From: an uncultured Actinomycetes bacterium
GTDB taxonomy: Bacteria > Actinomycetota > Thermoleophilia > Gaiellales > JAICJC01
Reading direction: 5' to 3'
Assembly: GCA_963809325.1 (NCBI GenBank)
Contig: CAWEIZ010000002.1
Coordinates: forward strand, 609,745 to 673,744
Length of the DNA stretch: 64,000 nucleotides
In this document: positions 13,210 through 22,359 of the stretch, in pieces
Layout of the letters: each line of letters opens with the position of its first letter
How positions within the stretch are numbered: the first letter of the stretch is position 1
Translations under genes and position numbers: made by a program
The notes under the pieces: generated by a model
Database searches by the model: none
Told to the model about the DNA's origin: nothing
Seen by the model: the letters and a program-made list of their open reading frames with translations, nothing else

Positions 13210-14184
13210 TCAGCCCACGGCGAACGGGTTCGACCAGGCGAGGGAGCCGTCGGCCGAGACGACCTCGACCCGGCCCCACTTCCAGTACTCGGGCGGCTCG
13301 AACCGGGCGCGGGTGATCGCGCCGTCGTCGCGCCGCTCGAGCACGCGTCCGCGCCAGTTCATGGCGAGCGGCGCCGCGTTGACGCCGCAGCCGTCCCACG
13401 GCCCGGAGCGCACGGTGATCGACCGGGCCGGCGCGGACCGCACCTCGACGCCGCCGGCGTCGACCTCGATCCCGAGGATCGTCGCGCCGGACGTGGCGTA
13501 GAAGTCGCCGTCGCGCAGCGCGGCCACGACCGCCTCACGGGAGCGCTCGGCCGCGCGCACCATCGTCCACGCGAGCCGGCTGTCCTGGCCGGGGTAGTGC
13601 GAGTCGTCGGTCGCGATCCCGAGGCAGCGCCCGCCGAGGTGCAGGATGTCGTCCCAGTGGACGACCGAGAGGCCGTTTCGCTGCATGAGCTCGGAGCCGC
13701 CGTTCATGACCTCGATGCCGGAGAGCGCGGGCGCGGCCAGGTAGTCCTCGGCCCGAAGGCCGCTCCAGTAGGGATGCGCCAGGTACGCCACGCCGCCCTG
13801 GGCGACGATCCAGGCGGCGGCGTCCGCGATCGACGGGAACTCCTCGGCGGGATCGGGCAGGACGTCGATCCCGTAGGCCAGCACGTCGGCGTCGAAGTCG
13901 CCCCGTCCGTCGAGCTTGGCCGAGAGCTCGCTCGACGGGATCAGCAGGAGCTCGTCGTGGGCGTGGGTCGTGATGTGCCAGTGGTCGGTGATCGCGAGCA
14001 CGTCGAACCCGGCCCGGACGTAGTGCTCGACGAGCCCGGCGGGGGTCGCCTCGCCGTCGGAGTTCGTGGTGTGCGAGTGGAGCTGGCAGCGCAGCCACTC
14101 GCCGTCGCTGCCGAAAGGGGCGATCACGGCCGCGGACGCTACCGGGCGGGTCGGCCTGCACGCAACCGGCGCGGTTTGTACCAT
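13210..14184 (-). CDS. PHP domain (CehA/McbA-like) metallohydrolase
   Basis: LRCQLHSHTTNSDGEATP...DVLAITDHW...AYLAHPYW...GIATDDSHYPG. Confidence 0.7.
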   Translation of the reverse strand: MVQTAPVACRPTRPVASAAVIAPFGSDGEWLRCQLHSHTTNSDGEATPAGLVEHYVRAGFDVLAITDHWHITTHAHDELLLIPSSELSAKLDGRGDFDADVLAYGIDVLPDPAEEFPSIADAAAWIVAQGGVAYLAHPYWSGLRAEDYLAAPALSGIEVMNGGSELMQRNGLSVVHWDDILHLGGRCLGIATDDSHYPGQDSRLAWTMVRAAERSREAVVAALRDGDFYATSGATILGIEVDAGGVEVRSAPARSITVRSGPWDGCGVNAAPLAMNWRGRVLERRDDGAITRARFEPPEYWKWGRVEVVSADGSLAWSNPFAVG

Positions 14185-14193
14185 CTCGCAACC

Positions 14194-15860
14194 GTGGCCG
14201 CCCCCGCGTCACCCGCCGCACGCTCCTTCAGGGCGCAGCGTCGGGCTCGCTCGCCGTCTACCTGGCCGGCTGCGGCGGCAGCTCGTCGAAGCTGCCGCCC
14301 GCGTCGTCGGGAGGCGGAGTCGCCGTCTCGGGCGCCGTGCCGGGCCCACCGGTGACCGGAGGCGTCCGCGGCGGCCGGGTCGTGAACGCGTTCGACGTCG
14401 AGGGCAACGGCTACGACCCGGCCATCGCCTACACGAGCACGGGGTGGGAGGCGATCTGCGACGTCCTCTTCTCGCCGCTCTACTCCTACGACACCGACAA
14501 CTCGCCGCGGCCGAACGCCGCCGCCGCGATGCCGAAGGTGTCGGCCGACGGGCTCGTCTACACGATCCCGCTCCGCAAGGACGTGAAGTTCCACAACGGC
14601 CGGGCGGTGGTCGCCGCCGACTACAAGTACGCCTGGGAGCGGGTGCTCGACCCCAAGACCCAGAGCTGGGCGGCGAGCTACATCTACACGATCAAGGGCG
14701 CCAAGGAGCTCTACCACCGTCAGGCGCAGGAGCTCACCGGCGTCGAGGTCGTCGACGACTCGACGCTCCGGGTGACGCTCGTCCAGCCCGACATCACGTT
14801 CGTCTACGCCCTGACCCAGCCGTTCATGGCGCCGGTTCCCAAGGAGGAGGTCGACCGTCTGGGCGCCGACTTCGCAGACACCCCGGTCGGGAACGGCCCG
14901 TTCAAGGTCGGGACGTACGACTCGCAGGGCCAGCGCTACGTGTTCACCCGGTTCGACGACTACTACTGGAAGGGCCTCCCGTACCTCGACGAGGTCGAGT
15001 TCCGATGGGGGATCGACCAGAGCGTCCAGCTCCTCATGATGCAGCGCGGCGAGCTTGACCTCATGGGCTACGGCCTGAACGCCCAGAGCCTCGCCGAGAC
15101 CAGCGCGTCCGACCGGCTCAAGAAGTACCGCTTCGAGCAGCCGCTGCTCGCGTCGCGGTGGATCAACATGCACCCCCGCGTCGAGGCGTTCCGCGACGTC
15201 CGCGTCCGCCAGGCGCTCAACTGGGCGACCGATCGCGACCAGCTCGAGCGCGTGACCGGCGGCGAGGCGACCGCCTGGGGGGCGCCGTTCCCGAAGGACG
15301 TCCTGGCCGGCGCGCGCACGTTCCCGCCGTACACCCTCGACCTCGATCGCGCCCGCAGCCTCCTCTCCGAGGCGGGGTCACCGCAGGTGGCGGCGACCCT
15401 GTGGGTGAGCGACAGCCCCGAGCCCCAGGTCGGCGCGGTGCTCCAGCAGCAGTGGAAGGCCATCGGCGTCGACATCACGCTGAAGCAGGCCTCGTACGCG
15501 ACCATCAACGATCTCAGCATCAAGGGCAAGTGCGACGCGTGGGTCTCGACCTACTACGCGATCTACCCGACGGCGATCGACCTGATCAGTCAGTACTGGG
15601 AGACCGGCGGGTCGGCGAACTACACCCACTACTCGAACGCCGACGTCGACCGGCTCACCGCCCAGGCCCGCGGCACCAACGACCCGGTGGCGCGAAACGC
15701 GCTCCTGGCCCAGGTCGAGGCCCAGGTCGGCGAGGACGCGGCCGGCGTCTTCTGCGAGAACGTGAACTGGATCATGGCCCGCAACCCCGACCGCCTCAGG
15801 AACTTCCACTACTCCGGTGTCTACGGCGCTTACTACGACCGCCTCTGGGTCGCGACGTAA
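14194..15860 (+). pseudogene. ABC transporter substrate-binding protein (family 5, peptide/nickel type); the signal peptide is out of frame at the C5 run 14201-14205 as assembled
   Basis: The mature part is in the frame of 14337. That frame also reads upstream as ...VTRRTLLQGAASGSLAVYLAGCGGSSS (a Tat-like RR motif plus lipobox) but has no start codon. GTG 14194 is one base out of frame. Confidence 0.7.
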
Positions 15861-16711
15861 GGCGCCCGCGGCCACCTGGCCGCGGCGGACGTTCATCGCA
15901 GGGGTGGCGATTCTCAGCGCGAGGCGTGCTGCTGGCGGTGTTCGCGCCGCTCTTCGGCGACCCGTACGCGACGCCCGTCGACGGCCTGACTCCGACGGGG
16001 CTGCCGCTCGGAGTCCTCACCTCCGGCCACCCGCTCGGGACCGACTCGCTGGGCCGCGACATGCTCGCACGGGTCGCGTTCGGAGCCCGGGCGAGCCTCG
16101 AGATCGCGTTCATCTCGAACATCACCTCGGTCGGGCTGGGAGTGATCGTCGGCCTCGTCGCCGGCTTCTACCGCGGCTGGGTCGAGCACGCGCTCATGCG
16201 GATCGCCGACGTGTTCCTGGCCGTGCCGACGGTGATCTCGGGCCTCGCGCTCGCGAGCGTCCTCGGGACGGGCGTGATCGGCATCTCGGTCGTCGTGACG
16301 GCGCTGTACTGGGCGTGGACGGCCAGGGTCGTCTTCGGCGAGACGCTCGCGCTGCGGCGGCGCACGTTCGTCGAGGCGGCGATCGCGATGGGGGCGCCCG
16401 GCCGCACGGTGATCCGGCGCCACATCCTGCCGAACCTCGCGAGCCTGATCGCGACCATCGCGGCGTTCAACGGCGCGACCGTGGTGGCGGTCGGCGCCGG
16501 GCTCAGCTACCTCGGCGCCGGGATCCAGCCGCCGACGCCGGAGTGGGGGAACATGCTCGCCGAGGGCCAGGGGGCGATCGACTACGCACCGCACCTCCTG
16601 ATCGTGCCGCTGGCGTGCGTCGTCCTCATCGTCTTCGGCTTCGTCCTGATCGGTGAGTCGCTCTCGCGCCGCGGCGCCGTCTCGCTCCAGAGGTCATGGC
16701 TCGATATCTGA
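15817..16711 (+). pseudogene. ABC transporter permease (DppC/OppC type), +1 frameshift near 15922-15925 as assembled; start uncertain
   Basis: TM1 (WPRRTFIAGVAILSA) is in one frame. The body (VLLAVFAPLFGDPY...GTDSLGRDMLARV...) is in the next frame. Confidence 0.7.
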
Positions 16712-17620
16712 TCGTCCGCGCCGGCCTCGGCCTCGTCACGATCGCGGGCGTCGTCCTGCTCACGTTCGTGCTCCAGTTCTCGCTTCCGGGCGACCCCGCC
16801 CGCCGGATCGCGGGCCCGCGCGCGTCGCCGGAGGTGCTCGCGACCGTGCGCGCCAATCTGCACCTCGACGACTCGGTGCCGTCGCAGCTCGTCACCTACG
16901 TCGACGGATGTCGCGCAGGGCGATCTCGGCGTGTCGTACATCCGCCGCCGGCCGGTCATCGACCTGATCATGGAGCGCCTGCCGGCGACGGCCGTGCTCG
17001 CCGTCGGCGGCCTGATGGTCGAGGTGATCCTGGGCGGCGGCCTCGGGCTGTGGGACGGCCTTCGCCGCAAGCGCAGCCGCGGCCTCGCCGCCGCGAACGT
17101 GGTCCTCCTCTCGATCCCGACCTACTCGCTCGGGTTCCTGCTGCTCGTGGTCTTCGCCTACCGGCTCGACCTGCTCCCGCTGGGCGGAGGCACGAGCGCC
17201 AAGGAGCTGATTCTCCCGGCGGCGACGCTCGGCCTCTTCGGCGTCCCCTACTACGCCGCGGTCGTCTCGGAGTCGACGCGCACGGCCCTGTCCGCGTCGT
17301 ACATGCGAACGGCCGTGGCGAAGGGCCTTCCGCGGCGTGTGATCCTGCGCCGGCACGTGATCAGAAACTGCCTCTCGCCGGTGATCACGCTGGCCGGCCT
17401 CGATGTCGCGATCTACCTGTCCGGCGTCGTCTTCGTCGAGTCCGTCTTCGCATGGCCGGGCATCGGCGAGCTTCAGGAGCAGGCCTACAACGAGCTCGAC
17501 CGGCCGCTCCTCATGGGCACGGTCATCATCGCGGCGGTGGTCGTGGTCGCCTTCAACCTCGTCGCCGACGTCGTCCGCGTGCTCGTCGACCCGCGGGCCC
17601 GCGTGGAGGAGGCGGGATGA
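16696..17620 (+). pseudogene. ABC transporter permease (DppB/OppB type), +1 frameshift near 16906-16907 as assembled
   Basis: MARYLIVRAGLGLVTIAGVVLLTFVLQFSLPGDPARRIAG...LVTYVD runs in one frame. It continues as DVAQGDLGVSYIRRRPVIDLIMERLPAT... in the frame of 16931. Confidence 0.75.
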
Positions 17621-18579
17621 CGCCGCTCCTCGAGGTCGAGCGCGTCTCGGTTCACTACGGCTCGTTCGAGGCGGTGACCGAGGCGTCGATCGCCGTGGAG
17701 GAGGGGAGCACGATGGCGATCGTCGGCGAGTCGGGGTCGGGCAAGACGTCGCTCGCGCTGGCGGTCGCGCGGCTCCTGCCTCCCGGCGGTGAGATCGTCG
17801 CGGGCTCGGTGCGTGTGGACGGCGTCGACGTCACGAGCCTCACCGGAGCCGATCTGCGCCGCGCGCGCGGGCGGCTGGTCGGCTACCTCGCCCAGGATTC
17901 CATGGCGGCGCTCAACCCGGTCCTGCCGGCCGGCCTCCAGGTCGCGGAGGTGTTCGAGACGCGCGACGGCGCGCGGCGCCGTGACGCCCGCCGTCAGGCG
18001 GTCGACATCCTCGCCCAGGTCGGCATCCAGCGGGCGGCGGAGGTCGCTGCCATGTATCCGCACGAGCTCTCGGGCGGCATGCGCCAGCGGGTCATGATCG
18101 CGATGGCGCTCGCGCTGCGCTCGCGGCTCCTCATCGCCGACGAGCCGACGACCGCGCTGGACGTCACGGTGCAGGCCGAGATCCTGGCGCTGGCCGCGGC
18201 GCTCCAGGCCGAGCACGGCGTGACGTTCCTGTGGATCACCCACGACATGGGCGTCGTCGCCGAGATCGCCGGAACCGTCGCGGTCATGTACGGCGGACGC
18301 ATCGTCGAGCAGGGGCCGGCGGCCGAGGTGTTCGCGCGCCCGGCGCACCCCTACACGCAGGCGCTTCTCGAGACGGTGCGCGGCGGAGCCGAGGCGCCGC
18401 CGAAGTCGCCGTTCGCCACCATCGCGGGCGCCCCGCCGGCGGGGTTCATCCCGCCCGGCTGCCCGTTCCATCCCCGCTGCGCGCACGTCCACGAGCCGTG
18501 CGCCGATGCCGTGCCACAGGCGGTGGACGTCGGCCCCGGGCACCGGGCCGCGTGCCACCTTCTCGGAGGCGCCCGGTGA
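17617..18579 (+). CDS. ABC transporter ATP-binding protein (DppD/OppD type)
   Basis: GESGSGKTS, LSGGMRQRVMIAMAL, ADEPTTALD, and a C-terminal Cys-rich oligopeptide-ATPase tail; ATGA overlap. Confidence 0.85.
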   Translation: MTPLLEVERVSVHYGSFEAVTEASIAVEEGSTMAIVGESGSGKTSLALAVARLLPPGGEIVAGSVRVDGVDVTSLTGADLRRARGRLVGYLAQDSMAALNPVLPAGLQVAEVFETRDGARRRDARRQAVDILAQVGIQRAAEVAAMYPHELSGGMRQRVMIAMALALRSRLLIADEPTTALDVTVQAEILALAAALQAEHGVTFLWITHDMGVVAEIAGTVAVMYGGRIVEQGPAAEVFARPAHPYTQALLETVRGGAEAPPKSPFATIAGAPPAGFIPPGCPFHPRCAHVHEPCADAVPQAVDVGPGHRAACHLLGGAR

Positions 18580-19517
18580 GCGCGCCGATCGTCCAGCTCG
18601 ACCGGGTGACGAAGCGGTTCGGGCGCGTGACCGCCGTCGACGGCGTGTCGCTTTCGCTCCACGCCGGCCGGACGCTCGGCGTCGTGGGCGAGTCGGGATG
18701 CGGCAAGTCGACCACCGCCCGGCTGGTCGTGGGCCTCGAGCGGCCGAGCGACGGCGCGCTTCGCTTCAACGGCACGCCGTACGGCCGCTCCGCCCGGGCG
18801 CTTCGTTCGGCCCGCAAGGCAATCGGGATGATCTTCCAGGATCCCTACGAGTCGATCGACGGCCGGTTCACGGTCGGAGACGTCGTCGCCGAGCCGCTCG
18901 ACACGCACGGTGTCGCGCGGGGCGCACGCGCCGAGCGCATCCACGAGCTGCTCGACTCCGTCGGGATGGGCGGCATCGACCCCGGCGCCTATCCGGCCCA
19001 GTTCTCGGGCGGGCAGCGCCAGCGGATCGGCATCGCCCGCGCGCTCGCGCTCGACCCGGAGCTCGTGGTCTGCGACGAGCCGACCTCGGCGCTCGACGTC
19101 TCGGTGCAGGCCCAGATCCTGAACCTCCTGCTCGAGCTCCAGCGCGAGCGGGGCGTGGGGCTGCTCGTCATCTCGCACGACCTCCACGTGGTGCGGCGGA
19201 TGAGCGACGAGGTGGCCGTGATGTACGCCGGCATGGTGGTCGAGCAGGGGCCGGCCGAGGATGTCACGCGCTCGCCGCGGCACCCCTACACCCGGGCGCT
19301 GCTCGACGCCATCCCGGGCACGTCGCCCGCCGAGCGGCGCCTGAGCGGCCGTCCGCGCGCCGCCGAGGGGATCGCGTCGGCGGCGGTCGCAGGCTGCCCG
19401 TACTCGACCCGCTGCCCGCTCGTGACCGACATCTGCCGGGCCGAGAAGCCGGCCCTCGAGGGGGGCGAGCACGCGGTGGCGTGCCATCACGCGGACGCGG
19501 CGGCCACGGCGAAGTAG
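18576..19517 (+). CDS. ABC transporter ATP-binding protein (DppF/OppF type)
   Basis: GESGCGKST, FSGGQRQRIGIARAL, CDEPTSALD; GTGA overlap. Confidence 0.85.
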   Translation: MSAPIVQLDRVTKRFGRVTAVDGVSLSLHAGRTLGVVGESGCGKSTTARLVVGLERPSDGALRFNGTPYGRSARALRSARKAIGMIFQDPYESIDGRFTVGDVVAEPLDTHGVARGARAERIHELLDSVGMGGIDPGAYPAQFSGGQRQRIGIARALALDPELVVCDEPTSALDVSVQAQILNLLLELQRERGVGLLVISHDLHVVRRMSDEVAVMYAGMVVEQGPAEDVTRSPRHPYTRALLDAIPGTSPAERRLSGRPRAAEGIASAAVAGCPYSTRCPLVTDICRAEKPALEGGEHAVACHHADAAATAK

Positions 19518-19526
19518 TCTCCGGCC

Positions 19527-19994
19527 GTGCTCGCGCCCGGCGACCGCGTCCCCGACGTCACGCTCATCGGCAACGAACTCGAGCCGGTGCGGCTCGTCGA
19601 GTTCGCCCGCGAGGGGCCGCTCCTGCTCGCCTTCTATCTGTACGACTGGACCGGCACCTGACGAAACGAGCTTCGGCTCCTGCGTGACAGGAGCGCGGTG
19701 TTCGGAGTCGCCGGCGTCCGCATCGCCGCCGTCTCGCGCGACAGCCCGTACTCCCACAAGAAGTGGGCCGAGCAGCAGTGGCTCGACTATCCGCTCCTCT
19801 CCGACTGGACCGGCGAGGCGGTGCGCGCGTTCGGCGTCGCGCAGGACCTCGACGGCCTGGTCGACACGCCCGTGCGGAGCTGCTTCCTGATCGACGGCGA
19901 GGCCGTGATCCGGGGCGCATGGCGCTACGGCGACGACGAGGTGCCGGACGTCGAGGAGCTGGCCAGGGCCGCGGTCTCGCTGGGAAATGGGTAG
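19527..19994 (+). CDS. AhpE/Bcp-like 1-Cys peroxiredoxin with an in-frame TGA (19659-19661) at the peroxidatic Cys position; candidate selenoprotein, or a nonsense pseudogene
   Basis: One frame reads ...LLLAFYLYDWTGT[TGA]RNELRLLRDRSAVFGVAGVRIAAVSRDSPYSHKKWAEQQWLDYPLLSDW...CFLIDGEAVIRGA. From memory this aligns colinearly with M. tuberculosis AhpE (FFPLAFTGICQGELDQLRD). Confidence 0.6.
19676..19694 (+). other. SECIS-like hairpin GCUCCUG-CGUGA-CAGGAGC, starting 14 nt downstream of the in-frame UGA
   Basis: Perfect 7-bp stem, 5-nt loop with G at the second loop position. An overlapping alternative hairpin, GAGC-UUCG-GCUC, lies at 19668-19679. Confidence 0.4.
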
Positions 19995-20021: not shown

Positions 20022-20834
20022 ATGTCAAGCGATAACGGGAAAGTTCAGCGCGTTCCGCGGAAGGTGTACGAGAAGGAGCTCGCACGCCTCCAGCTGGAGC
20101 TGGCCCGCATGCAGTACTGGGTGCGCGACGAGGGCGTCCGCGTGGTGGTCGTCTGCGAGGGCCGCGACGCCGCCGGCAAGGGCAGCACGATCAAGCGGAT
20201 GATGGAGCGGCTCAACCCCCGCCACGCGCGCATCGCGGCGCTGCCGGCGCCGACCGACCGCGAGCAGACGCAGTGGTACTTCCAGCGGTACGCGGCGCAT
20301 CTCCCCTCGGCGGGCGAAATCGTCGTCTTCGACCGCAGCTGGTACAACCGGGCCGGGGTGGAACGGGTGCTCGGGTTCTGCACTCCGGCGCAGCACCAGC
20401 TCTTTCTGCGCCAGTGCCCGACGTTCGAGCGGATGCTGATCGAGGACGGCATCCTCCTCACGAAGTACTGGTTCTCGGTGTCGGACGAGGAGCAGCTCAA
20501 GCGCTTCCAGGAGCGGATCAAGGACGAGCGGAAGCGCTGGAAGCTCTCGCCGATGGACCTCGAGTCCCGCAGCCACTACGTCGACTACTCGCGCGCGAAG
20601 GACGAGATGTTCGTGCACACCGACCTCCCGGAGTCGCCCTGGTTCGTGGTGGAGGCCGACGACAAGCGGCGCGCCCGCCTGAACTGCATCAGCCACTTCC
20701 TGAGCCGGATCCCGTACCAGGATCGGACGCCCGAGCCGGTCGAGCTTCCCCACCGTCAGGCGGAGGACGGCTACCGGCGGCCGGATCGCGTGACGCAGCG
20801 CTACGTGCCTGACCACGTGGCCGCGCTCGACTGA
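20022..20834 (+). CDS. ppk2: polyphosphate kinase 2
   Basis: VVVVCEGRDAAGKGSTIKRMMERLNPR...FDRSWYNRAGVERV...WFSVSDEEQLKRFQERIKDERKRWKLSPMD. Confidence 0.9.
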   Translation: MSSDNGKVQRVPRKVYEKELARLQLELARMQYWVRDEGVRVVVVCEGRDAAGKGSTIKRMMERLNPRHARIAALPAPTDREQTQWYFQRYAAHLPSAGEIVVFDRSWYNRAGVERVLGFCTPAQHQLFLRQCPTFERMLIEDGILLTKYWFSVSDEEQLKRFQERIKDERKRWKLSPMDLESRSHYVDYSRAKDEMFVHTDLPESPWFVVEADDKRRARLNCISHFLSRIPYQDRTPEPVELPHRQAEDGYRRPDRVTQRYVPDHVAALD

Positions 20835-21012
20835 TCCCCGCGATCCCGAGGCGCCCTGTGCTCGGATCGCCCGGCCGGGTGATTCGCGCCCGGCGCCTGC
20901 CGGTGACTATGAGAGTGAGGTCGCTCGCACTCGGGGCGACACGCGCTCCGTTCCAGGCTCTCCAGGCACCGGCTCCGGTGCCGGCTCCAGGTATGAGACG
21001 AGGTGGTGATCG

Positions 21013-21294
21013 ATGCCAGGCCCGACCGATCTCGTGAAGGACGTCCTCGCGCGCGCCCTGATCGCCGCTGACATCAACCCGGGGTTCTCCACCCTCACCT
21101 CGATTCGCACGGTGGCGGCGGGTCTCATTCCCGACGACGCGCTGGCGCTCAGCGTCATCGGTCAGGCGCGAGAGATCGTCCAGGGGACGGCAGAGCGCCT
21201 CTACGACGAGCCGCTCCACGTCGCCGAGCAGCGCTATACCAATGCCACTCTGCGCATCCTCCAGGCCGCCGTCTGGAGAACGAGCGAGGCCTGA
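21013..21294 (+). CDS. hypothetical protein
   Basis: ATG preceded by GAGGTGG; 93 aa; I recognise no homology; sits in a region of somewhat lower GC. Confidence 0.4.
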   Translation: MPGPTDLVKDVLARALIAADINPGFSTLTSIRTVAAGLIPDDALALSVIGQAREIVQGTAERLYDEPLHVAEQRYTNATLRILQAAVWRTSEA

Positions 21295-21354
21295 CCTGGC
21301 CTGACGGGCCACAGCGGCCCCTCCGACAACGGCTCGTGGTGGGATCATCCCGGC

Positions 21355-22359
21355 ATGTCCCTGGCGCTCGCCGTGGCGTGCTCGCTCGCGTTCTCGCTGA
21401 CGAACGGGTTCCACGACGCCGCGAACGCGATCGCCACCCTGGTGGCGACGCGCGGCGCACGGCCCGGTCAGGCGGTGGCGCTCTCGGCCGTCTTCAACAT
21501 GCTCGGCGCGGTGCTCGTCGGCACGGCGGTGGCCGACACGATCGCGGGCATCGTCACCGTGCCGGCCGCGAGCGGCGTGGCGGTCATCGGCGCAGGGGTG
21601 CTGGCCGCCACGATCTGGAACGTCGTGACCTGGCGGCTCGGGCTCCCGTCGAGCTCCGGCCATGCGCTGGTCGGGGGCCTCGTGGGGGCGGCCGTCGCGA
21701 CGACGGGCCTCGACGGCATCAACTGGGGCGGGCTCGACGGCTGGCGTCCCGTCGGCGTGTTCGGCGTCCTGATCGCGCTCGCCGTGTCGCCGGTCATCGG
21801 TTTCGTGTTCGGGGCCCTGGCCGCCGGCGCCGCCCGCCTGATGCTGCGCAGGGGCACGCGCCGGCTGGCCGAGCCGGTGCGAGGTGGCGAGTGGGTCATG
21901 TCGGCGGCGCTCTCGTTCAGCCACGGAGCCAACGACGCCCAGAAGGCGATGGGGGTCACCGCGGCGCTCCTGGTCGCGGGTGGCCGCCTCGACACCCTGT
22001 CCGTCCCGCTCTGGGTCAAGGTCGCCTCGGGTGCGACGCTCACGCTCGGCACGGCGATGGGCGGGTGGAGGATCGTCCGCACGATCGGTCGGCGCATCTT
22101 CCATCTGCACCCGATCGACGGGTTCTCGAGCCAGACCGCCTCGACGGCCGTGATCCTGACGTCGTCCTTCGTTGGCGCGCCTGTTTCGACGACCCACGTC
22201 GTCGCCTCGTCGGTGGTCGGCGTCGGTGTCGGCCGGCGCCGGTGGCGCCATGTACGCTGGGCGGTGGTGCGCACGATGGGCTTCGCATGGATCGCGACGT
22301 TGCCGGTGGCCGCGGCGCTCGGCGCCGTGATCGGCCTGGTCTGGGACGGCGTGGCATGA
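21355..22359 (+). CDS. inorganic phosphate transporter, PiT family
   Basis: LTNGFHDAANAIATLVATR...SFSHGANDAQKAMG...; multi-TM. Confidence 0.9.
   Translation: MSLALAVACSLAFSLTNGFHDAANAIATLVATRGARPGQAVALSAVFNMLGAVLVGTAVADTIAGIVTVPAASGVAVIGAGVLAATIWNVVTWRLGLPSSSGHALVGGLVGAAVATTGLDGINWGGLDGWRPVGVFGVLIALAVSPVIGFVFGALAAGAARLMLRRGTRRLAEPVRGGEWVMSAALSFSHGANDAQKAMGVTAALLVAGGRLDTLSVPLWVKVASGATLTLGTAMGGWRIVRTIGRRIFHLHPIDGFSSQTASTAVILTSSFVGAPVSTTHVVASSVVGVGVGRRRWRHVRWAVVRTMGFAWIATLPVAAALGAVIGLVWDGVA

What the first reader, a model, noticed from the sequence alone, without database searches (positions are those of the whole stretch)
19527..19994. AhpE-like peroxiredoxin with an in-frame UGA exactly at the peroxidatic cysteine, followed by a SECIS-like hairpin (candidate selenoprotein)
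One continuous frame from GTG 19527 to TAG 19992-19994 encodes a 155-residue AhpC/TSA-fold protein. Its only interruption is TGA at 19659-19661. The local sequence FYLYDWTGT-[UGA]-RNELRLLRD aligns without a gap to the active site of M. tuberculosis AhpE as I remember it (FFPLAFTGI-C-QGELDQLRD). The stop codon therefore replaces the catalytic Cys, and both flanks stay in frame.

Fourteen nt downstream there is a perfect 7-bp hairpin with a 5-nt loop, GCUCCUG-CGUGA-CAGGAGC, at 19676-19694. Its position and loop (a G in the first two loop bases) fit what is described for bacterial SECIS elements. Sec-for-Cys peroxiredoxins are known in a few bacteria.

The other lesions in this window are indels, not substitutions. 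That argues somewhat against a trivial TGC-to-TGA error.
Basis: partly seen in the sequence, partly recalled or inferred. Interest (0 to 1): 0.8.

Follow-up and report, generated by a model that had tools for sequence, protein, structure and literature searches.

The report
Selenocysteine peroxiredoxin of soil Gaiellales
This gene encodes a peroxide-destroying enzyme whose catalytic cysteine is replaced by a UGA codon followed by a conserved RNA hairpin in about 70 related soil-bacterial sequences, so it is almost certainly a real selenocysteine enzyme that databases currently list as a truncated fragment.

Summary
GTG 19527 to TAG 19994 is one AhpC/TSA peroxiredoxin frame. Its only interruption is TGA 19659-61, which aligns to the peroxidatic Cys of solved Bcp/PrxQ and AhpE structures. 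A 7-bp/5-nt hairpin follows at 19676-94.

Comparative data decide the case. In 65 Gaiellales/Thermoleophilia genome loci plus the window, this codon is TGA in 60 and TGC in 6, never TAA or TAG. Eleven further independent assemblies also have TGA. Every TGA gene keeps the hairpin (mean -12.3 kcal/mol). Four of its 7 pairs show compensatory changes, and its synonymous sites are frozen, including rare CGT and AGG Arg codons. The Cys genes lack the hairpin (-3.4 kcal/mol). TGA is otherwise the main stop codon.

Sequencing error, pseudogene and codon reassignment are excluded. The best reading is a SECIS-directed selenocysteine peroxiredoxin.

One gap remains. No selA, selB, selC or selD lies in the window or the Prx loci. 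I found them only at lineage level, in Gaiellaceae and Solirubrobacterales MAGs, not in the same genome.

Sec-peroxiredoxins are already known, and this one is 27-34% identical to them. It is a new member of a known kind, and gene callers mis-annotate it everywhere.

The parts
19527..19994 (+). Complete selenoprotein CDS: a 155-codon peroxiredoxin of Bcp/PrxQ-AhpE type, from GTG start to TAG stop, read through the UGA at codon 45.
   Evidence: Single frame. Pfam AhpC-TSA at E 2.3e-26 over residues 4-129. All 60 TGA-type homologues have an open upstream frame of at least 36 codons, nearly all with a start codon about 41-44 codons before the TGA (range 33-52, one outlier), and most run about 107-114 codons after it.
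19659..19661 (+). UGA codon read as selenocysteine (inferred), at the peroxidatic position.
   Evidence: Aligns to Cp of 2cx3, 2ywn and AhpE 1xxu. TGA in 60 and TGC in 6 of 66 homologous genes, never TAA or TAG. TGA in 11 further assemblies.
19676..19694 (+). SECIS-like upper stem-loop. Arms at 19676-19682 and 19688-19694 (7 bp); apical loop CGUGA at 19683-19687. The stem starts 14 nt after the UGA and the loop 21 nt after it.
   Evidence: RNAalifold consensus, with 4 of 7 pairs showing compensatory changes. Pairing falls from 83% to 31-44% when the register is slid. Synonymous sites are frozen over codons +6 to +11. Mean dG is -12.3 kcal/mol in 60 Sec genes against -3.4 in 7 Cys genes. Loops: CGUGA 48, CGGGA 9, CGUGC 2, CGUGG 1.
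19650..19652 (+). Active-site Thr42, the T of the TxxU motif.
   Evidence: This position is Thr or Ser in every homologue (W[T/S]xT[U/C]). It corresponds to the T/SxxU/C criterion used for Sec-Prx in PMC1794560.
19875..19877 (+). Catalytic Arg117, in the VRSCFLID motif.
   Evidence: Invariant column R117 in alignment A1. Aligns to the conserved Prx Arg (KRAVFIV / KRSVFVI) in the PDB alignments.
19881..19883 (+). Cys119, a candidate resolving Cys (speculative).
   Evidence: Nearly invariant in the window's clade but Ala in Gaiellaceae-type members. No Cys at Cp+5, where PrxQ has its resolving Cys.
19698..19994 (+). The 98-aa fragment that gene callers annotate in place of the full gene. This is an annotation artefact, not a separate gene.
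   Evidence: ORF list. Nearly all database homologues at 70% identity or more are 89-109-aa C-terminal fragments. The N-terminal 37-44-aa piece is called as a separate ORF.

Best explanation
The gene encodes a selenocysteine-containing peroxiredoxin.

Proposed mechanism: during translation, the hairpin 14 nt downstream of UGA-45 acts as a bacterial SECIS element. It recruits SelB carrying GTP and Sec-tRNA(Sec) to the ribosome, so that UGA is decoded as selenocysteine instead of terminating.

The product is a 155-residue enzyme with a Bcp/PrxQ-AhpE-type fold. Its selenolate sits in the first turn of helix alpha-2, next to Thr42 and Arg117. It attacks hydroperoxides to form a selenenic acid, which is then recycled by a thiol reductant. 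That reductant could be thioredoxin, or a mycoredoxin/mycothiol-type system as for AhpE.

Shown here:
- the conserved UGA at the catalytic position;
- the Sec/Cys homologue pair;
- the conserved, covarying hairpin that is specific to the UGA forms;
- purifying selection on both halves of the protein;
- the Prx fold and active-site residues;
- that TGA is an ordinary stop codon elsewhere in this genome;
- that Sec machinery exists in the lineage.

Inferred only:
- that SelB binds this hairpin;
- that selenium is actually incorporated;
- that this particular genome carries selABCD;
- the identity of the reductant.

A crude tree suggests the Sec form is ancestral in the family and the Cys paralogues are derived.
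For: 1. Position. The TGA aligns without a gap to the peroxidatic Cys of solved Bcp/PrxQ and AhpE structures. Full-length homologues read FYLYDWTDT-C-RNQLR.

2. Conservation of the codon. It is TGA in 60 and TGC in 6 of 66 genes, from distinct species genomes and down to 47% protein identity. It is TGA in 11 more independent assemblies. It is never TAA or TAG.

3. The hairpin.
- It is present in all 60 TGA genes.
- 4 of 7 pairs carry compensatory double changes: L028 CUUCUG/CAGAAG, L052 CGCCUG/CAGGCG, and L064 and L062.
- The slid-register control drops paired cells from 83% to 31-44%.
- Further pair types exceeded 500 of 500 shuffles.

4. RNA-level selection. Leu7 is CTG in 100% of sequences, Arg8 is CGT in 85% and Arg10 is AGG in 97%. 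By contrast, the invariant residues S25, R26 and P29 have third-position entropy of 1.1-1.5 bits.

5. Contrast with Cys genes. They encode the same L-R-D-R residues but as CTG CGC GAC CGC, with no hairpin: -3.4 against -12.3 kcal/mol. One Cys form retains half of the element.

6. TGA is the normal stop codon in 23 of 33 window genes and 342 of 580 locus genes.

7. Upstream frames are open in 60 of 60 genes, nearly all with a start codon at a homologous position.

8. An AlphaFold model of the Cys paralogue (pLDDT 92.4) puts the residue in the first turn of a helix. Its fold matches Bcp4 at TM 0.89 and AhpE at about 0.86.

9. Machinery in the lineage. A SelA 89% identical to a soil sel-operon SelA is named [Gaiellaceae bacterium] by NCBI, and it lies near a SelB with PF25461 and PF09107. 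Related soil sel loci carry tRNA-Sec and selD. Solirubrobacterales also have selA, selB and selD.

10. Sec-peroxiredoxins with T/SxxU are an established family (PMC1794560, PMC5029168).
Against: - No selA, selB, selD or tRNA-Sec lies in the 64-kb window or in 1.1 Mb of Prx-flanking DNA.
- Same-genome co-occurrence could not be shown.
- No second selenoprotein gene was found in the held DNA.
- SelD in these lineages is the Cys type, so the hairpin cannot be compared with another SECIS from the same SelB system.
- No Rfam family matches.
- bSECISearch itself was not run. The distance and loop rules I applied are from memory of Zhang & Gladyshev 2005.
- The hairpin is conserved more in sequence than in structure, so there are few covariation events.
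- Part of the conservation is protein-level, because LRxLRD is also conserved in Cys forms and in AhpE.
- There is no biochemical evidence.
Confidence: 0.87

Rival explanations
1. The UGA is recoded, but not as selenocysteine. The hairpin would stimulate near-cognate readthrough, inserting Trp, Cys or Arg, and the genomes need not have Sec machinery.
For: Same-genome selABCD was not demonstrated. The hairpin is conserved unusually strongly in sequence. No other selenoprotein was seen in the held DNA.
Against: Trp or Arg at the catalytic position would inactivate a peroxiredoxin. Cys could simply be encoded as TGC, as it is in the paralogues. The element matches bacterial SECIS placement, and its loop G is invariant. 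The lineage does have selA, selB and tRNA-Sec. A Sec/Cys pair at a redox-active Cys is the standard signature of a selenoprotein (PMC1794560).
Confidence: 0.06
2. Translation really terminates at the UGA. The locus would yield a 44-residue peptide plus a separately initiated C-terminal protein of about 90-100 residues (a split peroxiredoxin), or only the fragment that gene callers predict.
For: Gene callers find start codons downstream and annotate fragments of 89-109 aa.
Against: The called internal starts are not conserved: MFGVAGV, MRIFGISRD and MRLLRDRS start at different positions. The break falls exactly on the catalytic residue, so neither piece would have an active site. This model does not explain why the codon is always TGA, or why a hairpin specific to the TGA forms is maintained. 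The fold needs both halves.
Confidence: 0.04
3. Pseudogene, or a sequencing or assembly error (TGC misread as TGA).
For: The window comes from an uncultured-organism assembly.
Against: The same TGA occurs in 60 species-level genomes. It also occurs in MEGAHIT, nanopore and Logan assemblies from unrelated studies, across 89 blocks of the collection. Both halves are under purifying selection, with low amino-acid entropy and higher third-position entropy. Upstream frames are open in 60 of 60 genes.
Confidence: 0.01
4. UGA is reassigned genome-wide in this lineage, for example to Trp or Gly.
For: None beyond the in-frame TGA itself.
Against: TGA terminates 23 of 33 high-confidence genes in the window and 342 of 580 in the loci. 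A scan for in-frame TGAs flanked by coding signal found only this gene.
Confidence: 0.01

Closest known systems
Sec-containing bacterial peroxiredoxins (the 'Prx' selenoprotein family of Zhang, Gladyshev and co-workers: 12 sequences in 2006, PMC1794560; 91 in 78 organisms in 2016, PMC5029168)
   Same: AhpC/TSA fold, Sec replacing the peroxidatic Cys in a T/SxxU motif, a SECIS hairpin just downstream of the UGA, and coexisting Cys homologues.
   Different: Only 27-34% identical to the 12 published sequences, which is no closer than to ordinary Cys peroxiredoxins. The published examples are mostly from anaerobic Deltaproteobacteria and Clostridia, whereas this clade is from soil Gaiellales (Actinomycetota). 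The canonical active-site Pro is Leu here.
PrxU of Eubacterium acidaminophilum (NCBIfam NF040737, peroxi_PrxU)
   Same: A Sec-containing, thioredoxin-dependent peroxiredoxin.
   Different: Scores 44 bits against a family cutoff of 270. PrxU is a protein of about 230 residues in a different Prx subfamily.
M. tuberculosis AhpE (PDB 1xxu, 1xvw), a 1-Cys, mycoredoxin-dependent peroxiredoxin
   Same: Actinobacterial and about 153 aa. The active-site alignment is gapless (FFPLAFTGIC against FYLYDWTGTU), the LRD motif follows, and there is no Cys at the PrxQ resolving position. Fold TM is about 0.86 with rmsd 1.9 A.
   Different: About 28% identity. AhpE uses Cys and has the canonical Pro. The reductant here is unknown. 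The window's clade has an additional conserved Cys119.
Archaeal Bcp/PrxQ (A. pernix 2cx3, S. solfataricus Bcp4 3hjp, S. tokodaii 2ywn)
   Same: Best sequence hits (E 3.5e-18 to 2.1e-15) and best structural match (TM 0.89, rmsd 1.5 A).
   Different: These are Cys enzymes with no recoding. A. pernix and S. tokodaii Bcp have a resolving Cys at Cp+5, which is absent here.
E. coli fdhF-type bacterial SECIS
   Same: A stem-loop in the coding sequence just 3' of the UGA, with a G-containing apical loop (GU at loop positions 2-3 in 51 of 60 sequences). It is presumably read by SelB.
   Different: The spacer is 14 nt rather than the 11 nt I recall for fdhF. No conserved bulged U or lower stem was detected. 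Binding to the short Thermoleophilia SelB (493-568 aa) is untested.

Membership tests
Peroxiredoxin (AhpC/TSA, PF00578) | Match to the family profile above the curated threshold | tested here: met
   92.6 bits against a cutoff of 26, E 2.3e-26, covering profile positions 1-122 of 124.
Peroxiredoxin (AhpC/TSA, PF00578) | Active-site motif PxxxTxxC with the peroxidatic residue, plus the conserved Arg | tested here: inconclusive
   Thr42, U45 (Cys in the paralogues) and Arg117 are present and conserved. The canonical Pro is Leu across the family (FYLYDWTxT[U/C]); only L055 has Pro.
Peroxiredoxin (AhpC/TSA, PF00578) | Thioredoxin-like fold with the peroxidatic residue in the first turn of helix alpha-2 | tested here: met
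   Model of the 64%-identical Cys paralogue P0002: pLDDT 92.4, with C47 at the start of helix 45-56. TM 0.89 to Bcp4 and about 0.86 to AhpE. The window protein itself could not be submitted.
AhpE subfamily of peroxiredoxins | Closer to AhpE than to other Prx subfamilies | tested here: not met
   Archaeal Bcp/PrxQ score better by sequence (3.5e-18 against 8.8e-13). The best NCBIfam hit is thiol peroxidase Bcp PRK09437, but far below its cutoff. The fold is about equally similar to both.
AhpE subfamily of peroxiredoxins | 1-Cys mechanism with a mycoredoxin/mycothiol reductant | not testable with these tools
   There is no Cys at Cp+5. Cys119 is conserved only in part of the family. The reductant needs biochemistry.
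Bacterial selenoprotein (SelB/SECIS-dependent UGA decoding) | In-frame UGA conserved among orthologues, with Cys-containing homologues aligned at the same position | tested here: met
   60 TGA and 6 TGC among 66 genes, plus 11 more TGA. Full-length Cys homologues.
Bacterial selenoprotein (SelB/SECIS-dependent UGA decoding) | Stem-loop immediately downstream of the UGA, with G in the apical loop, at SECIS-compatible distance | tested here: met
   A 7-bp stem starting 14 nt after the UGA, with the loop 21 nt after it. The loop is C-G-[U/G]-G-N with G2 and G4 invariant. The numerical rule (16-37 nt, G in the first two loop bases) is from memory of bSECISearch; the program itself was not run.
Bacterial selenoprotein (SelB/SECIS-dependent UGA decoding) | The structure is maintained by selection (covariation, presence only in Sec forms) | tested here: met
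   4 of 7 pairs show compensatory changes. Register and shuffle controls support the pairing. Synonymous sites are frozen over the hairpin. The hairpin is absent or decayed in 7 Cys genes.
Bacterial selenoprotein (SelB/SECIS-dependent UGA decoding) | selA, selB, selC (tRNA-Sec) and selD in the same genome | not testable with these tools
   These genes are absent from the window and 65 flanking loci. The probes were validated on 80 genuine sel operons. Lineage-level presence is shown for Gaiellaceae and Solirubrobacterales MAGs. No same-genome link was obtained.
Bacterial selenoprotein (SelB/SECIS-dependent UGA decoding) | Selenium actually incorporated at the UGA position | not testable with these tools
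   Requires 75Se labelling or mass spectrometry.
PrxU (NCBIfam NF040737) | Score above the equivalog cutoff | tested here: not met
   44.1 bits against a cutoff of 270.

The most novel reading that the evidence does not exclude
The 19-nt element is nearly invariant in sequence, not only in structure, across an order-level radiation in which the protein has diverged to 47% identity. The SelB proteins of this class are unusually short. The most novel reading not excluded is that this is a lineage-specific recoding signal with sequence-specific recognition. It might serve a second role, such as selenium-responsive control of termination against readthrough. Alternatively, it might work in some carrier genomes without the canonical selABCD set.
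Probability: 0.08. Interest if true: 0.7.

Novelty: new member of a known kind. Interest (0 to 1): 0.5.

Why it matters
- **Ecology.** Gaiellales and Thermoleophilia are among the most abundant uncultured soil Actinomycetota. This result shows that a whole clade of them has kept a selenocysteine antioxidant enzyme since early in the order's history. The best-known Sec-peroxiredoxins, by contrast, come mainly from anaerobes. It therefore links soil selenium availability to oxidative-stress defence in a dominant soil lineage.

- **Annotation.** In every assembly I examined, the gene is annotated as a 37-44-aa ORF plus an 89-109-aa 'peroxiredoxin' fragment. Some database clusters of these fragments have more than 100 member sequences. 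A family model that allows U at codon 45 would correct hundreds of entries.

- **Evolution.** The Sec/Cys paralogue pairs within single genomes, and a Cys gene with a half-decayed SECIS, give a clean natural system for studying Sec-to-Cys conversion.

Tried and rejected
- **Lower-stem extension.** The single-sequence MFE extends the hairpin downwards. Pairs 15-17/38-40 are broken in most sequences, so I dropped the extension.

- **Rfam.** No hit at gathering threshold for the whole window. At E up to 10 around the site there were only chance hits, mir-2235 and veev_FSE.

- **Sec machinery in the held DNA.** ARAGORN found no tRNA-Sec. tblastn with E. coli SelA, SelB and SelD written from memory found nothing. 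The probes were later validated on real sel operons.

- **Other selenoprotein genes.** A scan for in-frame TGAs flanked by coding signal found only adjacent same-frame genes.

- **Taxonomic assignment by tetranucleotide distance.** I tried this to pick out Gaiellales sel operons among metagenome contigs. It fails: known Solirubrobacterales loci are just as close.

- **Same-genome linkage.** I tried matching contig lengths, GenBank WGS prefixes and ENA assembly IDs. None matched.

- **Exact-sequence cluster look-up of candidate SelA proteins.** It returned no taxon names.

- **Comparison with a second SECIS.** SelD in these operons is the Cys type, so none is available.

- **Source record of the window.** Look-up through its PPK2 protein found no exact match on record.

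Full report
**Observation**

- GTG 19527 to TAG 19992-19994 is one frame of 155 sense codons.
- Its only interruption is TGA 19659-19661 (codon 45), in the context FYLYDWTGT*RNELRLLRDR.
- Fourteen nucleotides later lies GCUCCUG-CGUGA-CAGGAGC (19676-19694).
- With Cys substituted for the stop, the protein matches Pfam AhpC-TSA at E 2.3e-26.
- In HMMER alignments to solved structures, the stop falls on the peroxidatic Cys of A. pernix Bcp (2cx3), S. tokodaii PrxQ (2ywn) and M. tuberculosis AhpE (1xxu).

Taken alone, the hairpin is not remarkable for a 71% GC sequence: z = -1.31 against shuffles. The case therefore rests on comparison with relatives.

**Comparative evidence for the codon**

A protein search showed that nearly all close relatives (70-97% identity) in public databases are 89-109-aa fragments covering only the part after the stop. 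The full-length relatives are 48-64% identical and carry Cys (FYLYDWTDTCRNQLR).

A scan of one genome per species returned 65 loci. All are from Gaiellales, Gaiellaceae, Thermoleophilia or 'uncultured Actinomycetes' MAGs. Across these loci and the window:
- The codon is TGA in 60 genes and TGC in 6, and never TAA or TAG.
- All 60 TGA genes have an open upstream frame, nearly all with a start codon about 41-44 codons before the TGA. Most continue for about 107-114 codons after it.
- The same TGA is present in 11 further assemblies made with different technologies in unrelated studies. One such fragment is indexed in 89 blocks of the collection.

TGA is the ordinary, dominant stop codon of these genomes: 23 of 33 window genes and 342 of 580 locus genes. 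Sequencing error, pseudogenisation and genome-wide reassignment are therefore excluded.

**Comparative evidence for the hairpin**

Every TGA gene carries the 7-bp stem and 5-nt loop at the same distance from the stop.
- *Covariation.* RNAalifold recovers exactly this stem, and 4 of 7 pairs show compensatory double changes. Examples are L028 CUUCUG/CAGAAG, L052 CGCCUG/CAGGCG and L064 GGCCCUG/CAGGGCC. G-U wobble variants also occur.
- *Controls.* Sliding the 3' partners by 1-3 columns drops pairing from 83% to 31-44%. The number of extra pair types exceeds all 500 shuffles.
- *Lower stem.* The extension seen in the single-sequence fold is not conserved.
- *Codon choice.* Leu7 is CTG in 100% of sequences. 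Arg8 is CGT in 85% and Arg10 is AGG in 97%, both unusual codons for a genome with GC3 above 90%. Equally invariant residues elsewhere vary freely at the third position, with 1.1-1.5 bits of entropy.
- *Cys genes.* They encode the same L-R-D-R residues but as CTG CGC GAC CGC, which cannot pair. Mean stability is -3.4 kcal/mol, against -12.3 for the 60 Sec-type genes, and the two ranges do not overlap.
- *A remnant.* One Cys form (P0048/L193) keeps the 5' arm and loop but has lost the 3' arm. This is the 'remnant SECIS' pattern described for Sec-to-Cys conversions in PMC1794560.
- *Loop.* It is CGUGA in 48 sequences, CGGGA in 9, CGUGC in 2 and CGUGG in 1. G2 and G4 are invariant.

**What the protein is**

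An AlphaFold model of the 64%-identical Cys paralogue is confident (pLDDT 92.4) and places the Cys/Sec position in the first turn of a helix. The fold matches S. solfataricus Bcp4 (TM 0.89, rmsd 1.5 A) and AhpE (TM about 0.86, rmsd 1.9 A).

Thr42 and Arg117 of the Prx catalytic set are conserved. The canonical Pro is Leu throughout the family. There is no Cys at the PrxQ resolving position (Cp+5). Cys119 is conserved only in part of the family.

'AhpE-like' is therefore a fair description of size, fold and probable 1-Cys chemistry. By sequence, however, the family sits between archaeal Bcp/PrxQ and AhpE.

**Evolution**

In a crude neighbour-joining tree rooted with archaeal Bcp, the Cys genes form one clade nested inside the Sec genes, and the deepest branches (Gaiellaceae-type, L054-L065) are all Sec. 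Four MAGs carry both a Sec and a Cys paralogue, and one complete chromosome carries two Sec paralogues. A second group of Cys forms lies near the Gaiellaceae-type branch. The tree has no support values, so 'Sec ancestral, Cys derived' is only a tentative reading.

**Sec machinery**

This is the weakest point.
- *Negative result.* The window and the 65 flanks (1.1 Mb) contain no tRNA-Sec, no selA, selB or selD, and no second in-frame-TGA gene.
- *Probe validation.* I fished high-GC selA genes from metagenomes using the PLP-lysine motif. All 80 loci returned were genuine sel loci: each carries a SelA 37-56% identical to the E. coli probe. Most also have selB, 19 have tRNA-Sec and several have selD. 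This validates the probes, so the negative result above is real.
- *Solirubrobacterales.* The candidate L134 belongs to a cluster that NCBI names Solirubrobacterales. In MAGs from this cluster, selA, selB and selD lie together.
- *Gaiellaceae.* The medoid of a dense soil cluster is 89% identical to 'L-seryl-tRNA(Sec) selenium transferase [Gaiellaceae bacterium]'. That protein is encoded near a SelB in three GenBank MAGs.

The Sec-decoding trait therefore exists in the same family and order as the Prx carriers. I could not place it in the same genome, however.

**Comparison with what is known**

Selenocysteine peroxiredoxins with a T/SxxU site are an established bacterial selenoprotein family: 12 sequences in 2006 and 91 in 78 organisms by 2016. 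PrxU has its own NCBIfam model.

The window protein is only 27-34% identical to the 12 published sequences taken from the paper's supplement. It scores far below the PrxU cutoff. No curated family claims it. Full-text searches found nothing on selenoproteins in Gaiellales or Thermoleophilia, and nothing on a Sec-AhpE.

**Verdict**

This is a SECIS-bearing selenocysteine peroxiredoxin gene.
- *What is new.* It belongs to a previously undescribed subfamily that is old and widespread in soil Gaiellales, and it is systematically mis-annotated as a truncated protein.
- *How novel.* It is a new member of a known kind, not a new mechanism.
- *Confidence.* About 0.87. The remaining doubt is the undemonstrated same-genome Sec machinery and the lack of any biochemical evidence.

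Noticed in passing
window 19635-19661, and all loci L001-L065: The canonical active-site Pro of the peroxiredoxin PxxxTxxC motif is Leu throughout this family (FYLYDWTxT[U/C]). Only L055 has Pro (FYPFDWTDT*). The residue two before the active site is Gly or Ser in Sec forms but Asp in Cys forms (TGTU/TSTU against TDTC), again with L055 as the exception.
   Followed up: partly
L193 283-330 (JGI Ga0395770_0190142): The Cys-type homologue P0048 retains the 5' arm and loop of the SECIS (CTCCTG-CGTGA) but has lost the 3' arm (CGTGGC in place of CAGGAG). This is a half-decayed SECIS, consistent with a recent Sec-to-Cys conversion.
   Followed up: yes
L025 and L055 (both on OY969804.1); L001 and L002 (both CAWHWC01); pairs L032/L034, L041/L035, L043/L042, L047/L053: Single genomes carry two Sec paralogues, or one Sec and one Cys paralogue, of this peroxiredoxin. 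One MAG has two near-identical loci on different contigs, which could be a paralogue or strain heterogeneity.
   Followed up: partly
L187 5281-6762, L189 9353-10993, L191 4998-6704: SelB in Thermoleophilia MAGs is short (493-568 aa) and hits only PF25461 and the third winged-helix domain PF09107. In Gaiellaceae MAGs, selA and selB are separated by a methyltransferase, an acetyltransferase and a DUF402 gene. SelD in these operons is the Cys type (HGAGCGCK).
   Followed up: partly
window 13992-19517 and 20022-22359: The peroxiredoxin sits 9 nt after a peptide ABC transporter operon (SBP_bac_5, permease, ATPase with oligo_HPY). It is followed by polyphosphate kinase 2 and a PHO4 phosphate transporter. 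This context is not conserved in more distant carriers (L194-L204). ORFs in 16.7-18.6 kb occupy several overlapping frames, and I did not resolve them.
   Followed up: partly
L049 7802-7873: ARAGORN reports a 'tRNA-???' with a two-base anticodon (tt), next to a tRNA-Glu on the opposite strand.
   Followed up: no
P0338: A SelA 91% identical to the Gaiellaceae-type query is labelled 'Myxococcota bacterium' in NCBI and sits on a 2-kb contig. This is probably a mis-binned contig.
   Followed up: no
window 19881-19883: Cys119, two residues after the catalytic Arg in VRSCFLID, is nearly invariant in the window's clade but is Ala in Gaiellaceae-type members. It could be a clade-specific resolving Cys. 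I did not measure its distance to the active site.
   Followed up: no
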